NCBI GenBank assembly: GCA_963816565.1
Contig: CAWFLM010000012.1
Location: forward strand, 1-15,805
DNA length: 15,805 nt
Direction: 5' to 3'
From: an uncultured Alphaproteobacteria bacterium
GTDB lineage: Bacteria > Pseudomonadota > Alphaproteobacteria > Rhizobiales > Xanthobacteraceae
The notes under the pieces are model-generated. The model was not told where the DNA came from. It did no database searches and saw only the letters and a program-made list of their open reading frames with translations. A program made the position numbers and the translations under genes. Position 1 is the first letter of the stretch. Every line of letters starts with the position of its first letter. Shown in pieces: positions 7,043 to 15,705 of this stretch.

Positions 7043-8106
7043 ATGCAAAAAATGGGCTGCCCCCGTCCCACAAGCGGTGGTTCAACCCCTGACCCGCGCC
7101 GCGATCTTTCTGATCGTGACCATAAATCCTGGCGTCGAAAATCGTGCGGCCGTCCGGTCATTCTGCGGAGACCTGCCGGCGCTCCTTCGCGCCGTGGGTT
7201 TCCGCGACATCGAAGGCGAGCTTGTCCTGCGTCCTCGGATTTGGATCGGATGCGTGGGACAGGCTTTTCGGCACGCCGCGGCCGGCCGAGCTGCATCCGT
7301 TCCGCGAAATCAAGGCCGGTCCCCGCCATGCCGTCGCCACGCCCGGCGACATGCTGTTTCACATCCGCGCCAAGCGCATGGATCTCTGCTTCGAGCTGGC
7401 CACCCAGATCATGGCGCGGCTCAAAGATGCGGTTTCGCCCGTCGACGAGGTACACGGCTTTAGATATTTCGATGACCGTGATCTGGTCGGATTTGTCGAC
7501 GGAACGGAAAATCCGACGGATCAAGCGGCACTCGACGCCGCACTCGTCGAGCCTGGAGGACGCCGCGTTTGCCGGCGGCAGCTACGTGATCGTGCAAAAA
7601 TACTTGCATGATCTGGCCGGCTGGAACGCGCTATCCACCGAAGCTCAGGAACGCATCATCGGCCGCACCAAGCTTTCAGACATCGAGCTTGATGACGCTG
7701 TCAAACCAACATGCGCTCACAATGCGCTCACCACGATCGTGGAGGACGGCAAGGAAGTAAAGATCGTTCGCGACAACATGCCGTTCGGCTCGGTGGCGAA
7801 GGCGGAGTTCGGGACCTATTTCATCGGTTACGCTCGTTCGCCCCGAACGATCGAGCAAATGCTGGTGAATATGTTCGTCGGCCGGCCTCCTGGCAATTAT
7901 GACCGGTTGCTGGATTTCAGCCGCGCTGTAAGCGGCAGTCTTGTTCTTCGCGCCGTCGGCGACGTTCCTGGAGAATGTCGCGGACGACGAGCCCGTGGCG
8001 CCTTTGCCGCCGCGCTGCGGTTGCGGCGCCGGCGCAACCGGCGGCATCTGCGCGCGATGGATCGCTCGGTATTGGTTCCCTCAAAGGAGATCCTCCTCAT
8101 GAATAA
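7043..8106 (+). CDS. Dyp-type peroxidase, encapsulin cargo, with a C-terminal targeting peptide. It needs about 4 frame shifts and the 5' start is uncertain (7043-7077).
   Basis: Frame 0 reads ...AVVQPLTRAAIFLIVTINPG...LRAVGFRDIEGELV. Frame 1 (ORF 7144-7611) reads ...LHPFREIKAGPRHAVATPGDMLFHIRAKRMDLCFELATQIMARL...VDEVHGFRYFDDRDLVGFVDGTENPTD, the DyP GXXDG motif. Frame 2 reads ...GGSYVIVQKYLHDLAGWNALSTEAQERIIGRTK...GTYFIGYARSPRTIEQMLVNMFVGRPPGNYDRLLDFSRAVSGSL. Frame 0 then reads SLFFAPSATFLENVADDEPVAP. Frame 1 ends ...PAQPAASARDGSLGIGSLKGDPPHE* with TAA at 8104-8106. SLGIGSLKG is the canonical encapsulin cargo-loading peptide. Confidence 0.88.
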
Positions 8107-8938
8107 TCTTTACCGCGAGCTTGCTCCGATCTCAGACGCGGCGTGGTCTCAGATCGAGGAGGAGACCTCCCGCACGTTCAAGCGCTACCTCGCCGGACGG
8201 CGCGTCGTTGACATGCAGGGTCCGGGCGGTGTCGCGCTTCCGGCCATCGGCACCGGCCATTTGCGCGATATTAAAGCGTCCGGCGACGGCATCATCTCGC
8301 GCCAGCGCGAGGTGAAAGCGCTGGTCGAACTGCGCGTACCCTTCGAGCTTAGTCGCCAGCAGATCGACGATGTCGAGCGCGGCGCTAACGACTCAGACTG
8401 GCAGCCCGCGAAGGACGCCGCGCAGAGGATAGCCTTTGCGGAAGATCGCGCCATATTCGAAGGCTATGTCGCCGGCGGAATCGGCGGCATCCGGGAAGGG
8501 ACCAGCAATCCAGTGACGGCGCTTCCAGCCGACGTGCGCGCCTACCCGGACGCCATCGCCAAAGCGGTAAGCCAGTTGCGTCTGGTCGGCGTCAACGGTC
8601 CATATTCCGTGCTGCTCAGCGCCGATGCCTACACCAGCCTCAGCGAGACCAGCGATCACGGTTATCCGGTACTTGACCACGTCAAACGTCTGGTGGATGG
8701 CGAAATTATATGGGCGCCGGCAATCGCGGGCGCATTCGTGCTGACAACCCGCGGCGGCGATTTCGGCCTGTACATCGGCCAGGACGTATCGATCGGCTAT
8801 CTGAGCCACACCGAAGCAGTCGTCCGCCTTTACCTACAGGAGACATTCACTTTTCTCTTGCTCACGACGGAAGCTGCTGTCGCGTTAGCTCCCCCTGCGG
8901 ACGCGCGGTCGAATCCCGCTCAGCGAAAGCAGCGCTGA
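8099..8938 (+). CDS. Family 1 encapsulin nanocompartment shell protein (HK97 fold). It is the only long gene here that reads through without frame breaks.
   Basis: It reads MNNLYRELAPISDAAWSQIEEETSRTFKRYLAGRRVVDMQGP...DDVERGANDSDWQPAKDAAQRIAFAEDRAIFEGY...VGVNGPYSVLLSADAYTSLSETSDHGYPVLDHVKRL...EIIWAPAIAGAFVLTTRGGDFGLYIGQDVSIGYLSHTEAVVRLYLQETFTF. This matches characterised DyP-associated encapsulins end to end. Its ATG at 8099 overlaps the DyP stop (cATGAATAA). The last about 14 aa (PADARSNPAQRKQR) may be a read-through of a frame error. Confidence 0.92.
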   Translation: MNNLYRELAPISDAAWSQIEEETSRTFKRYLAGRRVVDMQGPGGVALPAIGTGHLRDIKASGDGIISRQREVKALVELRVPFELSRQQIDDVERGANDSDWQPAKDAAQRIAFAEDRAIFEGYVAGGIGGIREGTSNPVTALPADVRAYPDAIAKAVSQLRLVGVNGPYSVLLSADAYTSLSETSDHGYPVLDHVKRLVDGEIIWAPAIAGAFVLTTRGGDFGLYIGQDVSIGYLSHTEAVVRLYLQETFTFLLLTTEAAVALAPPADARSNPAQRKQR

Positions 8939-9061: not shown

Positions 9062-9112
9062 AGACTTGCCCAAAAAGAAGAGGTCGCCTGCGATATTTTT
9101 CGCAAGCGACCT
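9062..9112 (-). terminator. Rho-independent terminator for paralog A on the minus strand.
   Basis: Plus-strand AGGTCGCCTGCG (9081-9092), loop ATATTTTT, then CGCAAGCGACCT (9101-9112). This is a 12-bp stem with 1 mismatch. On the minus strand it is followed by CTTCTTTTTGGGCAAGTCTTTTTGGACGTCTTTTTGGGG, which gives three T5 runs. It lies 37 nt after the gene A stop. Confidence 0.6.
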
Positions 9113-9148: not shown

Positions 9149-9941
9149 TTAGTTCTTCGCCTGCCCGTTGGCCTTCAGAAAGTCCTGATAGGTGAGGCCC
9201 GCGTAGTTCGGCGTGGTCGGCGCTTGCGTTGCGTCGGCAGCCGGCGCCACAGGCGCTGCGTCGATGGATTTGCTGCCGGCCGGCGACACCGGGGTCGTGT
9301 CGGACAGGCCCCACCGACCGGCGCGCTGGCCGCTTCTTTGGTGAAGACTCGGCAAACACCACTAGGCCATCCTGCGTGTAAGCCTTGGTCAGGCAGGTGC
9401 ACGGACCGGGCGAAGCCACAGACACCGGGGCCGCATCCGCGAGTTCACCAGCAACCGTATCGATAGATACAGCGACCATCACGGAGAATCCAGTGCCCGT
9501 GACCATTGAATGCCCAGCCGGGTTGACCCGGGAAACCTGGACGGCCGGGATAGCCTGGACGGCCCGGATTGAGGATCGGAAGGCCAACCGTGCGACCGCC
9601 GCCACCGTTGTAGCCGCCTGTGCCAGTGCCGACGCGGCCACCGTTACCGGTACCAGTACCGACCTGGCCACCATTGTTGCCGGCGGTGCCGAGACCGCTG
9701 CCGGCGCGCTGCTGTTGCCGAAGTTGTTAGCGGAAACGGTGCTGTACTGTACCGGAAACTGAGCTGGCGCCGAAGGCGCGTACCGCTGGCGGTCTTGTCC
9801 GCGAGACACTGTGGTTGACGCCGCTGCCGCGACTGGCATTACCGCCGCCGCTGGAACCACGGGCATAAGATTCGCTAGATGAAACGAGGCAACGGTGATC
9901 GTGGCCGCGGCTGCAAGGCTGAGGATGAGGGTGCGTGACAT
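9149..9941 (-). CDS. Paralog A of a secreted Gly/His-rich, Cys-containing protein of unknown function. It carries a signal peptide and several 1-nt indels.
   Basis: The ATG at 9939-9941 sits behind GGAGAAC-N6. The N-terminus MSRTLILSLAAAATITVASF is a Sec signal peptide. Alternate frames give a Gly-rich region (GSGLGTAGNNGGQVGTGTGNGGRVGTGTGGYNGGGG), a collagen-like PGRPGYPGRPGFPGQPG stretch, then GWAFNGHGHWILRDGR, then ...ELADAAPVSVASPGPCTCLTKAYTQDGLVVFAES-TKEAASAPVGGA..., and the C-terminus ...DAAPVAPAADATQAPTTPNYAGLTYQDFLKANGQAKN* (ORF 9149-9355). The 303-aa ORF 9030-9941 is an artefactual read-through. Confidence 0.6.
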
Positions 9942-9974: not shown

Positions 9975-10014
9975 TTGCGATACCCGTTAGTCGGAGTTGT
10001 CGGAGAAAGGTTCA
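9975..10014 (-). promoter_or_regulatory. Putative ECF-sigma-dependent promoter of paralog A.
   Basis: On the minus strand it reads TGAACC (plus 10009-10014), then TTTCTCCGACAACTC (15 nt), then CGACTAA (plus 9987-9993), then the conserved AACGGGTATCGCAA. The -10 element ends 45 nt before the ATG. The same architecture is found upstream of paralog B and of the ECF sigma gene. Confidence 0.4.
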
Positions 10015-10134
10015 GGGCCGGTGAAGATCGCGATCGGCCTCGAGCGCGCCGCCGCAAGCGGGCCGGCAGGCGCCCTTAACTGGCGGGCCCTCATCAATGC
10101 CGGATAGGATCGATTGGCGGATTGCAATGAAAGT

Positions 10135-11013
10135 CTATTGGACCAGTTCGAGCACAAAATCCATCGGCTCGGCAATCGAATAACCCGAGTTAAGAAGCAT
10201 CGTAAAATCCGCCGCTTTTTCGGTCAGTGGAATAAACTCAGTCATGATGCCGACAAGATGAAAGTATATTTCAGAACCCTCCGGATCGATTTCAAATACC
10301 GGCCCTCCGCTGTTTCCCCTGTACACCGGGCCATCAATAATCAAAGAACGTCTTTGCGGATCTTTTCCGGCGATAAAAGCCTTTCGCAGCAGCGGCCGCA
10401 GCGGATCGAATTGTTGGTGTCAGGAAGACCCAGCGACGCCGGGTAGCCATACAAAATAGCATCGTTTCCGACCAGAACTTGATCGAACTTTCGGACCGCA
10501 ATCATTCCCGCACTAACCAGGCCGCTGTCCGCAAATTCGACTTTTGCGACCCCCGGCGAAAAGAATGTCATCAGCGAGTGATCCTGGGCTTCCTTCAGAA
10601 TCCCGAGCTTGATGGCTGCAACATCTCTCGTTTTGTGCGGCTTCACATCGCCCCGATCCAGCAGCATTTTGAAATCGACCCTCAGCAAAATCCGCTGCGG
10701 CGTCGGCTGATCCATCGAGTATGACACCAGTTCAAGAACCAGATCCGGCACTTCGGCTTTGTGGGTTTTTTCGTTGGGCAGGCCTGACGCTATGACGTGT
10801 TTTGCGGTCACCAAATATTCTGCATTGGCGGTACCAAAATAAAAACCCGAGCCAAAGCCCAACGTCGTTCCACTACTGTTTTTCATGATAACCAAGACGG
10901 GATAGGCCAAATTGTCGTCGGGAATCATCCGCCTCGCCTGCGCCAAATTGATCGACACGAACGGCCAAAGCGACGACCAGGAACAAGCGGCTGATTTGGA
11001 GCAGGTGATTCAT
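10135..11013 (-). CDS. Secreted trypsin-like (S1 / chymotrypsin-fold) serine peptidase. It sits in a low-GC island and has 2 frame shifts.
   Basis: A signal peptide MNHLLQISRLFLVVALAVRVD starts at the ATG at 11011-11013. ORF 10341-10958 (-) carries the His motif LVTAKHVIASG and the Asp motif TRDVAAIKLGIL. ORF 10135-10344 (-) carries the Ser motif YRGNSGGPVF (GDSGGP-like) and ends ...SIAEPMDFVLELVQ*. GC is about 47-50% over 10.1-11.1 kb, against about 65% in the flanks. Confidence 0.75.
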
Positions 11014-11154
11014 CGCAACAGCCTTTCAAGATCGGACCTCGCTTTTGGCAGACGCGCCTTTAGCCGCCTCAACTGTAGAACAGCGCGCCCATTTCGTCGC
11101 CCGTCGTTCCGAGCTGGAATGCCGTCGCCAAAAAACTATTTAAGACACTCGCAC

Positions 11155-11201
11155 TAACAAAAAAGAGACAGGTCGCCTGCGATACGTTTCGCAGGCGACC
11201 T
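11155..11201 (-). terminator. Rho-independent terminator for paralog B on the minus strand.
   Basis: Plus-strand AGGTCGCCTGCG (11170-11181), loop ATACGTTT, then CGCAGGCGACCT (11190-11201). This is a perfect 12-bp stem. On the minus strand it is followed by GTCTCTTTTTTGTT. It lies 39 nt after the gene B stop. Its stem sequence is nearly identical to the terminator at 9081-9112. Confidence 0.65.
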
Positions 11202-11239
11202 TCATTCTCATTTCCGGCGTGGGCGTTTTGCCGGCGTCT

Positions 11240-11886
11240 TCAGTTCTTTTCCGCTGCCTGCGCTGCCGCCTGGCCGTTGGCCTTCAGGAAGTCCTGATAG
11301 GTGAGGCCCGCGTAGTTCGGCGTGGTCGGCGCTTGCGTTGCGTCGGCAGCCGGCGCCACGGGCGCTGTGTCGTTGGACTTGCTGTTGGCCGGCGGTACCG
11401 GGGTAGCGTCGGAAGAGGCGCCGCCGATCGCCGCGCTGGCTGCTTCTTTGGTGCACATATCGGCGAACACCACCAGACCGGCCTGCGTGTAAGTCTTGGT
11501 CAGGCAGGTGCACGGACCGGGAGCAGCCGCAGATACGGGCGCCGCATCCGCGAGGTCACCATCCACCGGGTCGATGACGATCCAGCGGCCACCACGGAAA
11601 ATCCAGTGTCCGTGACCATGGCCGGCCCAACGGCCGGGAGCCGGAGCCGATCCGGGTGACCGGGACGGTCGCCATTGCGGGCTACACGTCCGCCACCATC
11701 GCGGCCGCCGCGGCCGGCGCCGGTACGTCCGCCGACATTGACGTGACCGCCGACGCTGGCATGACCGCCGAAACTGGCATGACCGCCGCCGCCGCCGAAA
11801 CCGTGGGCGTAAGAAGCGCTGGAAGCAAGCGAGGCGACGGTGATCGTGGCCGCGGCTGCGAGGGTGAGGATCAGGGTGCGTGACAT
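11240..11886 (-). CDS. Paralog B of the secreted Gly/His-rich, Cys-containing protein, about 215 aa. It has a signal peptide and at least 1 frame shift.
   Basis: The ATG at 11884-11886 sits behind GGAGAAC. It reads MSRTLILTLAAAATITVASLASSASYA, a signal peptide with an AxA cleavage site. This is followed by HGFGGGGGHASFGGHASVGGHVNVGGRTGAGRGGRDGGGRVA, which contains GGHxx[FV] hexapeptide repeats. After a frame shift it reads ...APGRWAGHGHGHWIFRGGRWIVIDPVDGDLADAAPVSAAAPGPCTCLTKTYTQAGLVVFADMCTKEAASAAIGGASSDATPVPPANSKSNDTAPVAPAADATQAPTTPNYAGLTYQDFLKANGQAAAQAAEKN* (ORF 11240-11566). The 263-aa ORF 11500-12291 is an artefact that runs past the true start. Confidence 0.65.
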
Positions 11887-11918
11887 GGTCGTTCTCCAGG
11901 GGTTGCGAGGGTTGGGCG

Positions 11919-11959
11919 TTTCGATACCCGTTGGTCGGTGGCTCCCGGAGAAAGGTTCA
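11919..11959 (-). promoter_or_regulatory. Putative ECF-sigma-dependent promoter of paralog B.
   Basis: On the minus strand it reads TGAACC (plus 11954-11959), then TTTCTCCGGGAGCCAC (16 nt), then CGACCAA (plus 11931-11937), then AACGGGTATCGAAA. The -10 element ends 44 nt before the ATG. The 5'-UTR ...CCCTGGAGAAC(A/G)AC(G/C)ATG is conserved with paralog A. Confidence 0.4.
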
Positions 11960-12177
11960 AAGGGGACAGTGAAATTCTCGATAGGCGCGGGGCGGGACCG
12001 GCCGGGGTCGAGCGGCGAGCCGCCTACTATTAAGTTTGCTTGAGTCGGCGTTGGCGGAGCTGACGCTGAAAGCCCATAAAACAAGGCTTTTGGCCTTCGG
12101 CTTGCCCTACCGCACATGAATAAGGAAACTGCCGGTACTCGAGTAGCCGAACCGCGCAAATTTTCTTCGATTTCAAT

Positions 12178-12206
12178 TGAACCTGGGCGCCGCTCCCAAC
12201 GACCAA
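12178..12206 (+). promoter_or_regulatory. Putative autoregulatory ECF-type promoter of the sigma factor gene.
   Basis: TGAACC (12178-12183), then TGGGCGCCGCTCCCAA (16 nt), then CGACCAA (12200-12206). It lies 23 nt upstream of the ATG at 12230. It has the same -35/-10 sequences and spacing as the promoters of paralogs A and B. Confidence 0.35.
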
Positions 12207-12229: not shown

Positions 12230-12790
12230 ATGCAGACGACTTCGGACGAGGTTCTGATCGGAAGGATCGCCAATGGCGACCGGCTCGCCATGCAGGTGCT
12301 GTTCGCGCGTCACCATGTCCGGGTTTACCGATTCGTGCTGCGGCTGGTGCGCAACGAGGCAACGGCGGAGGATTTGATCAGTGAGGTGTTCCTCGACGTC
12401 TGGCGGCAGGCCGGCAGGTTCGAGGGACGGTCAGCGGTGTCGACCTGGATGTTGAGCATCGCCCGCTTCAAGGCGCTGTCGGCGCTGCGCAAGCGTACCG
12501 AGGAGGAGCTGGATGACGAGACGGCCAGCGCGATCGAGGATCATGCCGACGATCCGGAGGTCTCGCTGGCGAAGAAGGATAAAGCCGCCGTGTTGCGGCA
12601 ATGCCTGGGCAAGCTCTCGGCCGAGCACCGGGAGGTCGTCGACCTCGTATACTACCATGAGAAATCGGTGGAGGAGGTCGCGGGCATTGTCGGCATTCCG
12701 GAGGCGACCGTGAAGACGCGCATGTTCTATGCGCGGAGGAAACTGTCGGAGCTCCTCAAGGAGCAAGGAATGGATCGAGGTTGGCCATGA
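12230..12790 (+). CDS. ECF-family RNA polymerase sigma-70 factor.
   Basis: It reads MQTTSDEVLIGRIANGDRLAMQVLFARHHVRVYRFVLRLVRNEATAEDLISEVFLDVWRQAGRFEGRSAVSTWMLSIARFKALSALRKR, which is region 2. It continues ...LSAEHREVVDLVYYHEKSVEEVAGIVGIPEATVKTRMFYARRKLSELL, which is region 4. The six-frame ORF starts at 12116, but the N-terminal alignment and the promoter favour 12230. Its TGA overlaps the anti-sigma ATG (CCATGACC). Confidence 0.9.
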   Translation: MQTTSDEVLIGRIANGDRLAMQVLFARHHVRVYRFVLRLVRNEATAEDLISEVFLDVWRQAGRFEGRSAVSTWMLSIARFKALSALRKRTEEELDDETASAIEDHADDPEVSLAKKDKAAVLRQCLGKLSAEHREVVDLVYYHEKSVEEVAGIVGIPEATVKTRMFYARRKLSELLKEQGMDRGWP

Positions 12791-13467
12791 CCGCGGCGCA
12801 AGGAAAGCGAGCCGAACGAAATCGAACTCCTGCTGCCTTGGCACGCGGCGGGAACGCTCAGCCAACGCGACAAGCAGCGCGTGGAAGCCGCGCTCGCCAA
12901 CGACCCGGAGCTTGCGCGCCGCTACCAGCTGGTGCGCGAGGAGCTTGGCGAGACCATCCACCTCAACGAGACGCTGGGGGCGCCATCGGCGCGCGCCATG
13001 GAAGCGCTATTCGCCAAGATCGACGCCGAGCCGGCGCGAGCCCCGGCGGTGTCGATCAATGTCGGCGTGCGCATTCGCGAATTTTTGCCGGCCTTTCGCC
13101 GCGCACGCTTGCCTGGTCGGCAAGCGCGGCGATGCTGGCCATTCTGCTGCAGGCCGGATTGATTGCCGGCATTCTGTTCAAAGAACAAGGCGCCCAGACT
13201 GCGGCCAACTACCAAACGGCCTCGCTGTCGCGCCCGGCCAGCGGCGAAGGTTCCTATGCGCTGATCCGTTTCCAGCCGCAGGCCAATGCCGCCGAAATCA
13301 GCAAATTCCTGGAAACCAACAAACTCACTATCGCCGACGGCCCGTCGCCGGGCGGGCTATATCGGGTGCGCGTCGCGCCGAGCAAGGTTTCCGGTACGGA
13401 CCTCACCGGCATCGTGAAGAAGCTGCAGGACAATAGCGTTGTGGGCTTTATCGCCCCCACGGAGTGA
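12787..13467 (+). CDS. Cognate anti-sigma factor, a single-pass membrane protein. It needs 2 frame shifts.
   Basis: Stitched over 3 frames it reads MTAAQGKRAEPNEIELLLPWHAAGTLSQRDKQRVEAALANDPELARRYQLVREELGETIHLNETLGAPSARAMEALFAKIDAEP.... It then reads ...LSPRTLAWSASAAMLAILLQAGLIAGILF, which is a transmembrane helix. It continues ...YALIRFQPQANAAEISKFLETNKLTIADGPSPGGLYRVRVAPS...VGFIAPTE*. The N-terminal ELLLPW..G.LS motif is typical of ECF anti-sigma factors. It is translationally coupled to the sigma gene. Confidence 0.75.
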   Translation: MTAAQGKRAERNRTPAALARGGNAQPTRQAARGSRARQRPGACAPLPAGARGAWRDHPPQRDAGGAIGARHGSAIRQDRRRAGASPGGVDQCRRAHSRIFAGLSPRTLAWSASAAMLAILLQAGLIAGILFKEQGAQTAANYQTASLSRPASGEGSYALIRFQPQANAAEISKFLETNKLTIADGPSPGGLYRVRVAPSKVSGTDLTGIVKKLQDNSVVGFIAPTE

Positions 13468-13556: not shown

Positions 13557-15705
13557 ATGCGAAGCAAGCGATGACGTCCCGATCGATCCTGGGGGTTATG
13601 CTCTTCGGTTTGTTTTGGCGGTAGCTGCATTGACAAATCTGGCCCCGCCGCAGCGCGCGGCTTCGGCGGCGGCGTTTTGGCGGGGGGGCGCGCGGATGTT
13701 CGCGGCATGCGCGGCGGCGGATCGCACCACGAATGACGCGGAGTAGCGGCAGGACAAGTGGCGGTACATCCACCAAACGCGACGTCGGCAATTCGAGCGG
13801 ACCAGGACAACAAACACGTCGGGGACGGCCAGCCATCACGCGAACGTCGGCCGCCAATTCCGGAACAAAAACGACAAATACTGAACCAACTACAATTCTA
13901 GCTTGAGTTCATCCGGCAAGCACCGTCAAAAACGACGCATCAGGGGAACGGCAACATTTCGACCTCGAAAACATTGACGAATCAACACCGGTTCGAAAAC
14001 AACCAACATCAGGGGAGCAGCAACACTTCCACTGCGAACACGTCGACGACTGCCGGCTCGAGAACAACGACACGCAAGGAAGCGGCAACAATTCCACCGT
14101 GAACAGGTCGGCGAGCAATACCGGCTCAAGAACCACGACCACGACCGGCAACACGTCGACATCGAACACGTCGAACGCCAATGCCGGCTCGACGACAACA
14201 AACACACAGGGGCCGGCCAACACCCACCGGAAACACTCAGCCGCCAACAACGGCTCGAGGACGGGAAGCACGCCGGGGACCGGCGGCAATTCCACATCGA
14301 ATACGCCGGGCGCCACTACCGGTTCGGACACTGGTCGGGCCGGGGACGGTCGCTAATGCCGGCTCGAATACATCTGACACGCCGCGCGGTGGCGGCCGCG
14401 TTCCCGGCTGCAGTGCCGAACATTCCGCCGGGGCCTGTTGGTCTTGGCGGTGGCGGTGGCGGCGCAGGGGGTGGCGGCGGAGGTGCCGGTGGCGGCGGCG
14501 GAGGTGGCGCGGGTGGCGGAGCCAATGTGGCCAGCAGCGGCGTCCCACCGCGAAACGAGCGGCGCTACGTACCTGACGAAGTCATCGCTGAGTTTTCGTC
14601 GACCGCGACGCCGCAATCGATCGATCAGCTCGCACGCCGGTACAATTTGACCCGGCTTGAATCGCAAAGCTTCCCATTGATCGGCACCATCATTTACCGC
14701 TGGCACATCAACGGCCGCCGCTCAGTCCGGATACAATCGGTGCGATCGAAGACCAGCGCGTCGTCGCCAGAGCACAGCCCAATTACCTTTTCACGCTGCA
14801 AGCAGACGCCACAACCCCGGCGACAAAAACCCGCGGCGACGATTCGGCCCAATACGCCCTCGGCAAGCTGCACATCGAACGCGCGCATCAAGTCGCGACC
14901 GGGAAAAACATTCCGATTGCCTTGATCGACTCCGAGATCGACGTGAAACATCCGGACCTGAATGGAGCAATCACAAAAAGCTTCGATCCGCTCGGTGGAG
15001 ATGCCAAGCCGCACCCGCACGGCACTGCCATGGCAGGCGCCATCGCCGCGCACGGGAAACTTTCCGGCATCGCTTTAGGCCCGCATCTGTTGGCGGCGCG
15101 CGCCTTCGACAACACCGCGGGCGAGACCAAGGGTACCTCTCTTGCGATCTACAAAAGCCTGCAGTGGGCCGCGGACAATGGCGCTCGCGTCATCAACATG
15201 AGCTTCGCCGGCCCCGCCGACCCCGACATGCACCGGATGCTGGCGGCCGCATACGAGAAAGGCATCGTGCTGGTAGCGGCAGCCGGAAACGCCGGACCCA
15301 ACTCCGCACCGCTTTATCCGGCGGCCGATCCCGACGTCATCGCGGTGACTGCCACCGACAGCAATGACGGTCTGTTCAAGATGGCCAACCGCGGCTCATA
15401 CATTGCCGTTGCTGCTCCGGGCGTGGAGATTCTGGCACTGGCGCCCGGTAAACCGTATCAGATCACCACGGGCACCTCGGTCGCCGCGGCGCATGTCAGC
15501 GGGATCGCGGCAATGCTGCTCAAAGAAAAACCTTCGCTCACGCCCAACAAGTCCGCTCGATCATCATGTCTACTGCCAAGCCGCTCGGATCGGCCGGCCA
15601 GCGATCGGACTTTGGCGCCGGACTGGTCGATGCCTACCAGGCGGTGACGGCGATAGGAACGGCAAGCCGGCGGTTAAACAGGACGCCGAACAGGCAAAGG
15701 AATAA
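13557..15705 (+). CDS. Secreted subtilisin-like (S8) serine peptidase. It has a long N-terminal low-complexity Ser/Thr/Asn/Gly repeat region, a poly-Gly tract and an I9-like propeptide. The N-terminal part has many frame shifts and the 5' extent is uncertain.
   Basis: The catalytic domain (ORF 14922-15647 plus neighbouring frames) reads IALIDSEIDVKHPDL (Asp), HPHGTAMAGAIAAHG (His), AAAGNAGPNS (Asn) and TTGTSVAAAHVSGIAAMLL (Ser). The propeptide reads NERRYVPDEVIAEFSSTATPQSIDQLARRYNL.... Upstream are GLGGGGGGAGGGGGGAGGGGGGGAGGG and NTGSRTTTTTGNTSTSNTSNANAGSTTTNTQGP... repeats. A candidate signal peptide MRSKR-MTSRSILGVMLFGLF-LAVAALTNLAPPQRAASA sits at 13557, 6 nt after GGGAGG. Every frame has stops between 13746 and 14100, so the link between the signal peptide and the protease rests on assuming indels. 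The gene ends ...AYQAVTAIGNGKPAVKQDAEQAKE* at 15705. Confidence 0.8.
13920..14400 (+). repeat. About 7 degenerate tandem copies of a unit of about 60-68 nt that encodes an STNG-rich peptide repeat.
   Basis: The anchor [AT][AG]CCGG[CT]TC[GA]A recurs at about 13988, 14051, 14119, 14181, 14249, 14317 and 14356. Spacings are 63, 68, 62, 68, 68 and 39 nt. Translated units look like NTGSRTTTTTGNTSTSNTSNA, NAGSTTTNTQGPANT... and NNGSRTGSTPGTGGNSTSNTPGA. Confidence 0.6.
14443..14525 (+). repeat. GGN codon tract encoding poly-Gly (G6-7 A)x4.
   Basis: The DNA reads ggcggtggcggtggcggcgcagggggtggcggcggaggtgccggtggcggcggcggaggtggcgcgggtggcgga. The antisense poly-Pro ORF 14316-14525 and the WRWRW/AVAVAA ORFs in other frames are artefacts of this tract. 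Confidence 0.7.

What the first reader, a model, noticed from the sequence alone, without database searches (positions are those of the whole stretch)
9975..12206. Shared ECF-type promoter upstream of the sigma gene and both paralogs.
The motif TGAACC-N15/16-CGAC(C/T)AA occurs at three places. One is 23 nt upstream of the ECF sigma ATG (12178-12206, plus strand). The other two are 44-45 nt upstream of the ATG of paralog B (11931-11959, minus) and paralog A (9987-10014, minus). GAACC at -35 and CGxC at -10 with 16-nt spacing is the hallmark of ECF sigma promoters. Autoregulation of the sigma operon is the rule for ECF systems. Finding the same motif on the divergent neighbour and on its distant duplicate defines a candidate regulon directly from sequence. 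The two paralog promoters also share an extra block AACGGGTATCG(A/C)AA and the RBS context CCCTGGAGAAC.
Basis: partly seen in the sequence, partly recalled or inferred. Interest (0 to 1): 0.7.

Follow-up and report, generated by a model that had tools for sequence, protein, structure and literature searches.

The report
ECF sigma promoter and its mini-regulon
The repeated motif is real and is very probably the promoter read by the neighbouring alternative (ECF) sigma factor, which switches on its own operon and two copies of a gene for a small secreted protein of unknown function; this is a well-known kind of circuit, here in an unstudied soil-bacterial family.

Summary
All three sites exist exactly as described. 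TGAACC-N15/16-CGACYAA is never found in shuffled windows, and these are the only three strong matches in the window to a matrix built from other genomes.

In 80 related Xanthobacteraceae loci (sigma 80-91% identical), every sigma gene is preceded by tTGAACCt-N14-RCGAC[C/T][A/C]A about 25-30 nt before its ATG. The two boxes are nearly invariant and the spacer varies freely.

A matrix trained only on those sigma sites finds 65 further strong sites in the same loci, against 1 in a reversed-sequence control. At least 54 of them lie upstream of one of two things:
- genes for small secreted Cys-hairpin proteins, including the family of window paralogs A and B;
- in some lineages, a terminator-ended small RNA, which reaches the Rfam gathering score for Rhizobiales-2 in two loci.

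An L-type paralog not linked to any sigma gene carries the site too.

The unit is sigma, anti-sigma and S8 subtilase in one apparent operon, plus monocistronic target genes with their own terminators. This is a new member of a known kind. Transcription start sites, sigma dependence, the inducing signal and the function of the targets are untested. The window has many frameshifts, and paralog A may be a pseudogene.

The parts
12178..12206 (+). Putative autoregulatory ECF promoter of the sigma operon. The -35 box TGAACC is at 12178-12183, followed by a 16-nt spacer, and the -10 box CGACCAA is at 12200-12206.
   Evidence: Exact pattern match. It scores 28.1 bits with a matrix built from 79 orthologous loci. 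The same boxes at the same spacing precede the sigma gene in all 80 related loci, with a variable spacer.
12159..12177 (+). A/T-rich block AAATTTTCTTCGATTTCAA directly upstream of the sigma -35 box. It could be a UP-like element or a second regulator's site. Its function is unknown.
   Evidence: It is conserved as AAATTT(T)CTTCGATTT in most of the closer loci (positions -10 to -5 of the profile) and is absent from the target promoters. The proposed function is inference only.
12230..12790 (+). ECF (group 4) sigma factor gene, 186 aa, with an intact reading frame.
   Evidence: Pfam Sigma70_r2 at 8.8e-18 and Sigma70_r4_2 at 1.6e-12. NCBIfam PRK12515 at 332 bits against a cut-off of 236. It is 80-91% identical to orthologues in 80 Xanthobacteraceae genomes. 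The nearest solved structure is Mtb SigL, 6dv9_F, at 4e-18.
12787..13467 (+). Anti-sigma factor gene. The start overlaps the sigma stop, and the window sequence has at least 2 frameshifts. The protein has an N-terminal anti-sigma domain, one TM helix and a periplasmic beta-alpha-beta-beta-alpha-beta domain.
   Evidence: Frames. There is a weak zf-HC2 match at 18 bits, below the 22.2 cut-off. Sources name homologues 'anti-sigma factor RsiW'. The AlphaFold model shows helices, a TM helix and a C-terminal b-a-b-b-a-b domain at pLDDT 75-82.
13557..15705 (+). Secreted S8 subtilase gene, frameshifted in the window. It is the third gene of the apparent sigma operon and has no motif of its own.
   Evidence: Peptidase_S8 at 2.1e-35 on the window fragment. 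Intact orthologues have Fervidolysin_NPro-like plus Peptidase_S8 domains. The gene order sigma, anti-sigma, S8 is conserved. No matrix hit of 12 bits or more lies between 12206 and 15705.
11931..11959 (-). Putative ECF promoter of paralog B: TGAACC, 16-nt spacer, CGACCAA.
   Evidence: It scores 23.2 bits with the matrix trained on sigma sites only. It aligns with the promoters of orthologous L-type genes in 9 genomes, and conservation starts exactly at the -35 box.
11887..11930 (-). Leader of paralog B. It contains a conserved block just after the -10 box (CGGGTATCGAAAC, the likely start-site region) and the RBS CCCTGGAGAAC.
   Evidence: Alignment A1. No conserved RNA structure is predicted.
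11240..11886 (-). Paralog B coding region (L-type target). It encodes a signal peptide, a Gly/His-rich stretch, GHGHWIFRGGRW, GPCTCLTKTYTQAGLVVFADMCTKEAASA, and NYAGLTYQDFLKANGQ. The window sequence has one or more frameshifts in the Gly-rich part.
   Evidence: Frames. The family has 468 or more 'hypothetical' homologues with no Pfam domain.
11170..11201 (-). Intrinsic terminator of paralog B: a 13-bp stem followed by a T-run.
9987..10014 (-). Putative ECF promoter of paralog A: TGAACC, 15-nt spacer, CGACTAA.
   Evidence: It scores 16.9 bits. A 15-nt spacing is common in orthologous L-type promoters.
9149..9941 (-). Paralog A coding region (L-type target). It has several 1-nt deletions relative to B and to orthologues. 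It is either a pseudogene or carries assembly errors.
9081..9112 (-). Intrinsic terminator of paralog A, homologous to the terminator of B.

Best explanation
The three sites are promoters recognised by RNA polymerase carrying the ECF sigma factor encoded at 12230-12790.

**The units.**
- One promoter drives the sigma, anti-sigma and S8-subtilase operon. This gives positive autoregulation, held in check by the co-made anti-sigma.
- The other two each drive a monocistronic, terminator-ended gene for a secreted Gly/His-rich protein with a conserved Cys hairpin (paralogs A and B).

**How it works.** When an envelope signal inactivates the membrane anti-sigma, free sigma binds core polymerase. Region 4 reads TGAACC at -35 and region 2 reads CGAC(C/T)(A/C)A at -10, 15-16 nt downstream. 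Transcription probably starts about 7 nt after the -10 box, within the conserved block GGGTATCG of the paralogs or (A/C)GAGCC of the sigma leader.

**What is shown.**
- The sites and their statistics.
- Their conservation at orthologous sigma genes.
- Their recurrence on the target gene family, on an unlinked paralog, and in other lineages on a small RNA.

**What is inferred.**
- That this sigma, and not another one, reads them.
- The position of +1.
- The operon status of the S8 gene.
- That the subtilase acts on, or is held by, the propeptide-like periplasmic domain of the anti-sigma as part of signal sensing.
For: 1. The pattern occurs 3 times against 0.00 expected. These are the only three matrix hits of 12 bits or more in the window.
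2. All 80 related loci carry it 25-30 nt upstream of the sigma ATG. T, G, A, A, C, C are 78-79 of 79. CGAC is 75-79 of 79. The A at the seventh -10 position is 78 of 79. Spacer columns carry 0.7 bit or less.
3. The matrix trained only on sigma sites finds 65 other sites of 16 bits or more in 56 of 80 loci, against 1 in the reversed-sequence control. They classify as 28 S-type, 9 L-type and 7 T-type small secreted Cys-hairpin protein genes, 10 Rhizobiales-2-like sRNAs, and 11 others. The protein-gene sites lie about 32-61 nt upstream of the start codon.
4. In the L-type alignment, conservation begins exactly at the -35 box and nothing upstream is conserved.
5. An unlinked L-type paralog (L082, no sigma gene within 6 kb) has TTGAACC-N16-CGACCAA 36 nt before its ATG.
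6. Both window paralogs end in strong terminators, so each is a self-contained unit.
7. No sigma-70-like promoter is found near the sites.
8. ECF sigmas usually autoregulate and are co-encoded with their regulators and targets (PMC7826278). A C-G step at the upstream edge of the -10 box is preferred by Mtb sigma-L and many other ECF holoenzymes (PMC6372665).
9. For the subtilase idea: the anti-sigma periplasmic domain aligns to the operon's own S8 prodomain (hhalign probability 75%, E 2.5e-5). It models as b-a-b-b-a-b. Subtilisin propeptides are among the best structural matches, with rmsd 2.9-3.5 A.
Against: - There is no transcript data, so +1 and sigma dependence are untested.
- Only about 12.5 kb around each sigma gene was scanned, so the genome-wide frequency of the motif and the full regulon are unknown.
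- 24 of 80 loci show no second site within the fetched region.
- Paralog A has a weaker site (16.9 bits, which 8 of 200 shuffles reach) and a frame-broken coding region, so it may be dead.
- The anti-sigma and S8 genes are also frame-broken in the window. If those frameshifts are real, the circuit here is defective.
- The anti-sigma's zf-HC2 match is below Pfam's cut-off.
- The propeptide resemblance is weak. Foldseek's best E-value is 0.01, the hits are dominated by generic ferredoxin-like folds, and Pfam finds nothing.
Confidence: 0.85

Rival explanations
1. The sites are promoters, but a different ECF sigma of the same genome with similar specificity reads the paralog sites (or all of them). 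The adjacency to this sigma gene would then be historical rather than functional.
For: Alphaproteobacteria carry many ECF sigmas; Bradyrhizobium has 17 (PMC3420878), and cross-talk between paralogous systems has been reported there. The target sites differ slightly from the sigma sites: a TTTC(C/T) run follows the -35 box, and C often replaces G before CGAC.
Against: Sigma gene and motif-bearing targets co-occur in 56 of 80 loci despite rearrangement, with the target divergent upstream in some lineages and downstream of S8 in others. The -35 and -10 cores are identical between sigma-type and target-type sites.
Confidence: 0.07
2. The bipartite motif is the operator of a conventional DNA-binding regulator (activator or repressor) rather than a sigma recognition element.
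For: Conservation alone cannot distinguish a promoter from an operator. Extra conserved blocks flank the boxes: an A/T-rich block upstream of the sigma site and GGGTATCG downstream of the paralog sites.
Against: The two boxes are unrelated in sequence, being neither a repeat nor a palindrome. Their spacing is fixed at 15-16 nt with a free spacer. They are strictly oriented towards the downstream gene and lie at promoter distance from the start codons. They match the general ECF pattern of an AAC-containing -35 box and a CG-led -10 box. No sigma-70-type promoter is detectable nearby to be regulated.
Confidence: 0.04
3. The window copy of the circuit is decayed. The promoters are relics next to pseudogenes (anti-sigma, S8 and paralog A all frame-broken), so nothing is regulated here any more.
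For: There are multiple frame breaks in paralogs A and B, the anti-sigma, S8 and also the DyP-encapsulin genes. A low-GC insert with a broken gene lies between A and B.
Against: Frame breaks are spread over unrelated genes across the window. That is what an error-prone long-read assembly looks like, not selective decay. The sigma ORF is intact, and the promoter boxes are perfect for the sigma and B sites.
Confidence: 0.15

Closest known systems
Autoregulated ECF sigma/anti-sigma modules in general, as catalogued in the ECF classification (Staron 2009; Casas-Pastor 2021, PMC7826278)
   Same: The sigma has regions 2 and 4 only and is co-transcribed with a membrane anti-sigma. A group-specific -35/-10 promoter lies in front of its own operon and of neighbouring target genes. 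The target promoter is predictable from conservation upstream of the sigma gene.
   Different: The ECF Hub group of this sigma could not be determined with the tools available; NCBIfam PRK12515 was the only family it reached. The conserved partner is an S8 subtilase. The targets are uncharacterised small secreted proteins or an orphan sRNA.
Mycobacterium tuberculosis SigL-RslA (nearest solved structure, 6dv9_F)
   Same: It is the best sequence match among solved sigma structures (4e-18). It is autoregulated and has a small regulon of a few operons encoding secreted or membrane proteins (PMC4105308). Its -10 box is led by C-G (PMC6372665). From memory only, the SigL -35 box is also TGAACC (Hahn 2005; Dainese 2006); this was not verified here.
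   Different: The SigL -10 box is CGTGTC(A/C)AG-like, whereas here it is CGAC(C/T)(A/C)A. RslA is a zinc-binding anti-sigma with HxxxCxxC, and the anti-sigma here lacks those cysteines. The phylum and regulon differ, and SigL has no subtilase partner.
E. coli sigma-E (RpoE) envelope-stress circuit with its sRNAs MicA, RybB and MicL
   Same: An ECF sigma is freed from a membrane anti-sigma by periplasmic proteolysis. It transcribes its own operon, envelope proteins and small RNAs from GAAC...(T/G)C..A-type promoters. Here related lineages put the same promoter in front of a terminator-ended sRNA with a C-rich loop.
   Different: No DegS/RseP-type context is seen here. Any role of the subtilase in cleaving the anti-sigma is inferred only. 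The sRNA (Rhizobiales-2-like) is not present in the window itself.
ECF54 (subtilase, carboxypeptidase or CHAT genes in the sigma neighbourhood)
   Same: A subtilase is conserved next to an ECF sigma gene (PMC8999054).
   Different: ECF54 is proposed to lack an anti-sigma, with proteolysis acting on the sigma itself. Here a canonical membrane anti-sigma lies between the sigma and the subtilase.
BA14K-like small secreted proteins of Rhizobiales (Pfam PF07886)
   Same: The proteins are small and carry a signal peptide, a low-complexity linker and a C-terminal stretch of about 20 residues bracketed by two cysteines. This resemblance is recalled from memory.
   Different: Pfam gives no match for any of the five target proteins tested, even at E up to 1. 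They are not filed as members.

Membership tests
ECF (group 4 sigma-70) dependent promoter | Bipartite -35/-10 with an AAC-containing -35 box, a -10 box led by CG, and a spacer of about 15-17 nt | tested here: met
   The three sites are TGAACC-N15/16-CGAC(C/T)AA. The profile from 79 loci is tTGAACCt-N14-RCGAC[CT][AC]A. The CG preference of ECF holoenzymes is described in PMC6372665.
ECF (group 4 sigma-70) dependent promoter | Lies directly upstream of the sigma gene's own operon (autoregulation) | tested here: met
   The site ends 23 nt before the sigma ATG in the window. It is at the same place in all 80 orthologous loci.
ECF (group 4 sigma-70) dependent promoter | Boxes conserved across orthologues while the spacer and flanks drift | tested here: met
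   Box columns carry 1.5-2.5 bits and spacer columns 0.7 bit or less. The L-type alignment loses all conservation upstream of the -35 box.
ECF (group 4 sigma-70) dependent promoter | Transcription starts a few nt downstream of the -10 box and depends on the sigma | not testable with these tools
   No transcript data are available. This needs 5'-RACE or dRNA-seq, sigma or anti-sigma perturbation, or in vitro transcription.
ECF sigma factor | Only sigma regions 2 and 4, length about 170-200 aa | tested here: met
   Sigma70_r2 plus Sigma70_r4_2/r4 in 186 aa. TIGR02937 sigma70-ECF at 106 bits against a cut-off of 42.9, and PRK12515 at 332 bits against 236.
Class I membrane anti-sigma factor | N-terminal anti-sigma domain, then one TM helix, encoded immediately after the sigma gene | tested here: inconclusive
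   The gene overlaps the sigma stop. The zf-HC2 match is 18-18.7 bits, below the 22.2 cut-off. NCBIfam 'antisigma' NF052375 scores 34.6 bits, below its cut-off of 100. The AlphaFold model shows four N-terminal helices and a long TM-like helix, but at moderate to low confidence. Sources label homologues RsiW.
Subtilase propeptide (I9 / Fervidolysin N-pro-like) fold, for the anti-sigma periplasmic domain | A beta-alpha-beta-beta-alpha-beta domain homologous to S8 prodomains | tested here: inconclusive
   The topology is met. hhalign to the operon's own S8 prodomain gives probability 75% and E 2.5e-5. Foldseek gives subtilisin propeptides rmsd 2.9-3.5 A but E about 0.02, among many generic ferredoxin-like hits. 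Pfam finds no match.
Rfam RF01723 Rhizobiales-2 RNA (related loci only, not in the window) | Reaches the family's gathering score (40 bits) | tested here: met
   L068 7618-7708 scores 43.4 bits and L062 7386-7488 scores 42.2 bits. A second L068 copy scores 36 bits, below the cut-off. Eight or more further loci have the same sequence architecture but did not reach the cut-off. The window has no hit.
BA14K-like protein (PF07886), for the target proteins | Match to the Pfam model | tested here: not met
   No Pfam family matches five S-, L- and T-type proteins at E up to 1.

The most novel reading that the evidence does not exclude
This is an uncharacterised but very abundant soil-alphaproteobacterial ECF system in which the sensor is a protease/pseudo-substrate pair. 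The periplasmic domain of the anti-sigma mimics the propeptide of the co-transcribed secreted subtilase. Propeptide-like binding or cleavage by that subtilase would then set sigma activity.

Its output is a dedicated mini-regulon of small secreted His/Gly-rich, disulfide-stapled hairpin proteins, possibly for metal or envelope buffering. In sister lineages the output is instead the orphan Rhizobiales-2 sRNA, which would thereby get its first regulator and a testable function.
Probability: 0.25. Interest if true: 0.65.

Novelty: new member of a known kind. Interest (0 to 1): 0.45.

Why it matters
The promoter assignment turns three anonymous gene families into one testable circuit:
- an ECF sigma/anti-sigma pair;
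- a subtilase that always travels with it;
- a family of hundreds of 'hypothetical' secreted proteins from soil Xanthobacteraceae.

It gives a ready matrix for finding the rest of the regulon in any complete genome of this clade.

As a by-product, it links an Rfam orphan, Rhizobiales-2 (described in 2010, no function in the one description read here and one other mention in the searchable library), to a specific sigma factor and promoter. That is the usual first step towards finding when an sRNA is made and what it targets.

The principle itself, ECF autoregulation with neighbouring targets, is textbook, so the value lies in annotation and in experimental leads rather than in a new concept.

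Tried and rejected
1. **ECF Hub group.** I tried to name the group and its published promoter logo. The main text of Casas-Pastor 2021 has no mention of a peptidase context or of this motif, and no supplements are held. Full-text searches for TGAACC with ECF returned only primers or unrelated hits. The group remains unassigned.
2. **SigL -35 box.** I tried to verify from papers that the Mtb SigL -35 box is TGAACC. Hahn 2005 is not held, and the structural and review papers give only the -10 box. It is kept as recollection only.
3. **EcfS/TmrS and EcfF/OsrA of Bradyrhizobium.** These belong to ECF16, and their anti-sigmas (OsrA, TmrS) have periplasmic loops, i.e. more than one membrane pass, unlike the single-TM anti-sigma here.
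4. **S. meliloti ECF promoters.** They are of the GGAAT/GGAAC...GTCT/CGTT type, which is a different motif.
5. **Pfam and NCBIfam.** Neither gave anything for the paralog proteins or for the anti-sigma C-terminal domain.
6. **AlphaFold model of the L-type target.** The model was too poor to use (mean pLDDT 49.5, two short hairpins and two helices). No fold search was attempted on it.
7. **RNA structure in the paralog leaders.** None was predicted, with 0 pairs. The conserved block after the -10 box is therefore read as start-site or discriminator sequence.
8. **Literature on a subtilase acting on an ECF anti-sigma.** No paper was found. The only subtilase context described is ECF54, which lacks an anti-sigma.
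9. **Separate motif for the S8 gene.** None is present.
Full report
**1. Observation**

TGAACC-N{15,16}-CGACYAA matches exactly three times: 9987-10014 (-), 11931-11959 (-) and 12178-12206 (+). None of 200 dinucleotide-preserving shuffles had any match. The relaxed core GAACC-N15-17-CGAC gives the same three sites against 0.74 expected.

The distances to the start codons are as stated: 23 nt to the sigma ATG at 12230, 44 nt to the paralog B ATG (A at 11886) and 45 nt to the paralog A ATG (A at 9941). The extra block CAACGGGTATCG(A/C)AAC and the RBS context CCCTGGAGAAC are present in both paralogs.

**2. What the genes are**

- **Sigma (12230-12790).** This is an intact 186-aa ECF sigma. It matches Sigma70_r2 and Sigma70_r4_2 and NCBIfam PRK12515 at 332 bits.
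- **Anti-sigma (12787-13467).** It overlaps the sigma stop. It has a sub-threshold zf-HC2 match, one TM helix and a periplasmic domain.
- **S8 subtilase (13557-15705).** It follows 90 nt after the anti-sigma. Intact orthologues have a Fervidolysin-N-pro-like prodomain plus Peptidase_S8.
- **Paralogs A (9149-9941, -) and B (11240-11886, -).** They encode secreted proteins with this layout:
  - a signal peptide;
  - a Gly/His-rich low-complexity stretch;
  - GHGHW(I/F)FR(G/D)GRW;
  - an invariant GPCTCLTKxYTxxGLVVFADxCTKE motif;
  - a C-terminal NYAGxTYxDFLxAN helix region.
- **Unit structure.** Each paralog ends in a strong, mutually homologous terminator, at 9081-9112 and 11170-11201. A and B are therefore duplicated units of promoter, gene and terminator.

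The family has at least 468 homologues. All are 'hypothetical' and none has a Pfam domain.

The window contains many frame breaks: in paralogs A and B, the anti-sigma, S8 and DyP/encapsulin. This suggests an error-prone assembly, although real decay cannot be excluded, especially for paralog A.

**3. Comparative test of the promoter reading**

A scan of one genome per species returned 80 loci with sigma orthologues 80-91% identical. Nearly all are Pseudolabrys or other Xanthobacteraceae MAGs. Every one has the motif 25-30 nt upstream of the sigma start.

In the 79 sites with 16-nt spacing (the 80th has 15):

| Element | Conservation |
|---|---|
| T, G of TGAACC | 79/79 and 78/79 |
| AACC and the C, G and final C of CGAC | 79/79, but these seven positions were fixed by the search pattern used to collect the sites |
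| A of CGAC | 75/79 |
| A three positions after CGAC | 78/79 |
| Base before CGAC | always a purine |
| Spacer columns | 0.7 bit or less |

This is the footprint expected of an autoregulated ECF promoter. The ECF literature uses that property to predict target promoters (PMC7826278). The C-G step at the upstream edge of the -10 box is a preference shared by many ECF holoenzymes (PMC6372665).

**4. Test of the regulon idea**

A log-odds matrix built only from the sigma-upstream sites was run over all loci and the window.

| Threshold | Non-training hits | Reversed-sequence control |
|---|---|---|
| 12 bits or more | 87 | 23 |
| 16 bits or more | 65 | 1 |

 The 65 strong sites lie in 56 of the 80 loci and classify as follows:

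- 28 lie upstream of S-type genes. These encode 75-95 aa proteins with a signal peptide, a His/Gly/Trp-rich stretch and a C-terminal ..DCYVVKRxVxTPxGxRxRRVTVCD.
- 9 lie upstream of L-type genes, the family of window paralogs A and B.
- 7 lie upstream of T-type genes, which encode proteins of about 90 aa located downstream of S8.
- 10 lie upstream of a small RNA.
- 11 are other or undetermined. By eye about five of these are further S- or T-type genes that the automatic rules missed.

The protein-gene sites sit about 32-61 nt before the start codon.

In the window the three reader sites score 28.1, 23.2 and 16.9 bits, and the next hit scores 8.5. In an alignment of 11 L-type upstream regions, conservation starts exactly at TGAACC. 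It covers TTTCTCCG, CCGACCAA, (T/C)GGGTAT(C/T)G(G/A)AAC and GGAGAAC..ATG, and nothing upstream is conserved.

Two further loci add to this:
- L081 is syntenic with the window. It carries sigma, anti-sigma and S8, then an L-type gene, then encapsulin and DyP.
- L082 carries an L-type paralog with no sigma gene within 6 kb, yet it has TTGAACC-N16-CGACCAA 36 nt before its ATG.

The motif therefore travels with the target family, not only with the sigma locus.

**5. Mechanism**

*Shown:*
- the sites, their conservation and their association with these genes;
- monocistronic target units, each with its own terminator;
- the absence of a separate site for S8, which lies downstream of sigma and anti-sigma in all lineages examined.

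*Inferred:*
- Sigma freed from the anti-sigma directs RNAP to TGAACC/CGAC promoters. This raises expression of its own operon (including the anti-sigma and the subtilase) and of the secreted proteins.
- +1 probably lies about 7 nt after the -10 box, inside the conserved GGGTATCG block (paralogs) or (A/C)GAGCC block (sigma). No RNA structure explains that block.

*A more speculative step:*
- The periplasmic domain of the anti-sigma models as beta-alpha-beta-beta-alpha-beta at pLDDT 75-82.
- It aligns to the prodomain of the operon's own subtilase, with hhalign probability 75% and E 2.5e-5.
- Subtilisin propeptides are among its closest structural matches, with rmsd 2.9-3.5 A. The Foldseek E-values are only about 0.02, and generic ferredoxin-like folds score similarly. 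Pfam finds nothing.
- It is therefore plausible, but unproven, that the subtilase binds or cleaves this domain as part of signal sensing.

**6. Rivals**

- **Another ECF sigma with similar specificity.** It could read the target sites. Co-localisation across rearranged loci argues against this.
- **A classical operator.** This is unlikely, for four reasons: the two boxes are unrelated in sequence; the spacing is fixed while the spacer is free; the sites are strictly oriented at promoter distance from the start codons; and no sigma-70 promoter lies nearby.
- **Local decay.** Decay of the window copy is possible, but the frame breaks look assembly-wide.

**7. Comparison with the known**

This works like any autoregulated ECF module. 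The nearest solved relative is Mtb SigL, which also has a small regulon of secreted and membrane proteins. Its -10 box, anti-sigma type and partners differ. My recollection that the SigL -35 box is TGAACC could not be verified.

The ECF16 systems of Bradyrhizobium, the S. meliloti ECFs and ECF54 (subtilase but no anti-sigma) are not the same. The ECF Hub group could not be assigned. The target proteins recall BA14K-type proteins but do not match that Pfam family.

**8. Verdict**

In kind it is ordinary: an ECF promoter with a local regulon. It is therefore a new member of a known kind.

Its value is that it defines the promoter, the operon and the first targets of an abundant, unstudied system. 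It also yields two leads worth following: the subtilase and propeptide-like anti-sigma pair, and the link to the Rhizobiales-2 sRNA. Interest is 0.45.

Noticed in passing
L068 7414-7557 and 7569-7708; L062 7371-7488; also L056, L064, L065, L066, L072, L074, L075, L076, L078 (about 7.2-9.3 kb, downstream of the S8 gene): In these more distant lineages the same ECF-type promoter does not drive a protein gene. It drives an RNA of about 110 nt with a variable 5' hairpin, a GAUCGGCGC...GCGCCGAUC stem carrying a C-rich loop, and a rho-independent terminator. L068 and L062 reach the Rfam gathering score for RF01723 (Rhizobiales-2), at 43.4 and 42.2 bits against 40. This is an orphan motif from 2010: the one description read here gives it no function, and the searchable library holds only one other paper mentioning it. 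It therefore looks like an ECF-dependent sRNA of this sigma.
   Followed up: partly
L008, L010, L014, L017, L020, L021, L023, L026-L033, L039, L042, L047, L059, L063, L067 and others: the leader of S-type genes, just after the -10 box: A conserved hairpin or palindrome, GGATGTGAC-N-CACATCC, starts a few nt after the -10 box. By eye it shows apparent compensatory changes (GGATGCG..CGCATCC, GGACGTG..CACGTCC, GGACGCG..CGCGTCC). It could be a 5' stabilising stem-loop or a second regulatory site. It is absent from the L-type leaders of the window.
   Followed up: no
window 12159-12177: An A/T-rich block, AAATTTTCTTCGATTTCAA, lies immediately upstream of the sigma -35 box. It is conserved in most close orthologues and absent from the target promoters. 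It could be a UP-like element or a binding site for another regulator.
   Followed up: no
window, many genes (for example 7043-8938, 9149-9941, 11240-11886, 12787-13467, 13557-15705): Reading frames are broken by single-base indels in at least six unrelated genes: DyP peroxidase/encapsulin, both paralogs, the anti-sigma and S8. The sigma gene is intact. This pattern suggests an uncorrected long-read assembly rather than selective pseudogenisation.
   Followed up: partly
window 10016-11169: A low-GC insert (52-54% against about 64% elsewhere) separates the two paralog units. It carries a frame-broken minus-strand ORF (10341-10958) with no Pfam or NCBIfam match. The syntenic locus L081 has a single L-type gene followed by an alpha/beta hydrolase gene instead.
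   Followed up: no
window 7043-8938; L081 7702-9565: A DyP-type peroxidase followed by an encapsulin (Linocin_M18) gene, a classic encapsulin cargo pair, lies next to the paralogs. The arrangement is syntenic in L081.
   Followed up: no
window about 13600-14300; L024 7246-9234: After its signal peptide the S8 subtilase has a Gly-rich stretch beginning A(A/R)RGFGGG. The mature N-terminus of the L-type targets (ARGFGGGG...) looks very similar. This may be a shared sorting, anchoring or substrate-like feature.
   Followed up: no
L084 (Methylocapsa polymorpha RX1 plasmid pRX1, NZ_CP136863.1, 190012-200557): A cultured methanotroph plasmid carries an S8 peptidase, small ORFs, a sigma (62% identical) and an anti-sigma. 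A TGAACC-N16-CGACTAA site lies at L084 4410-4438, about 580 nt upstream of the sigma gene, and no site lies directly before it. This is a possible experimental host with a variant arrangement.
   Followed up: partly
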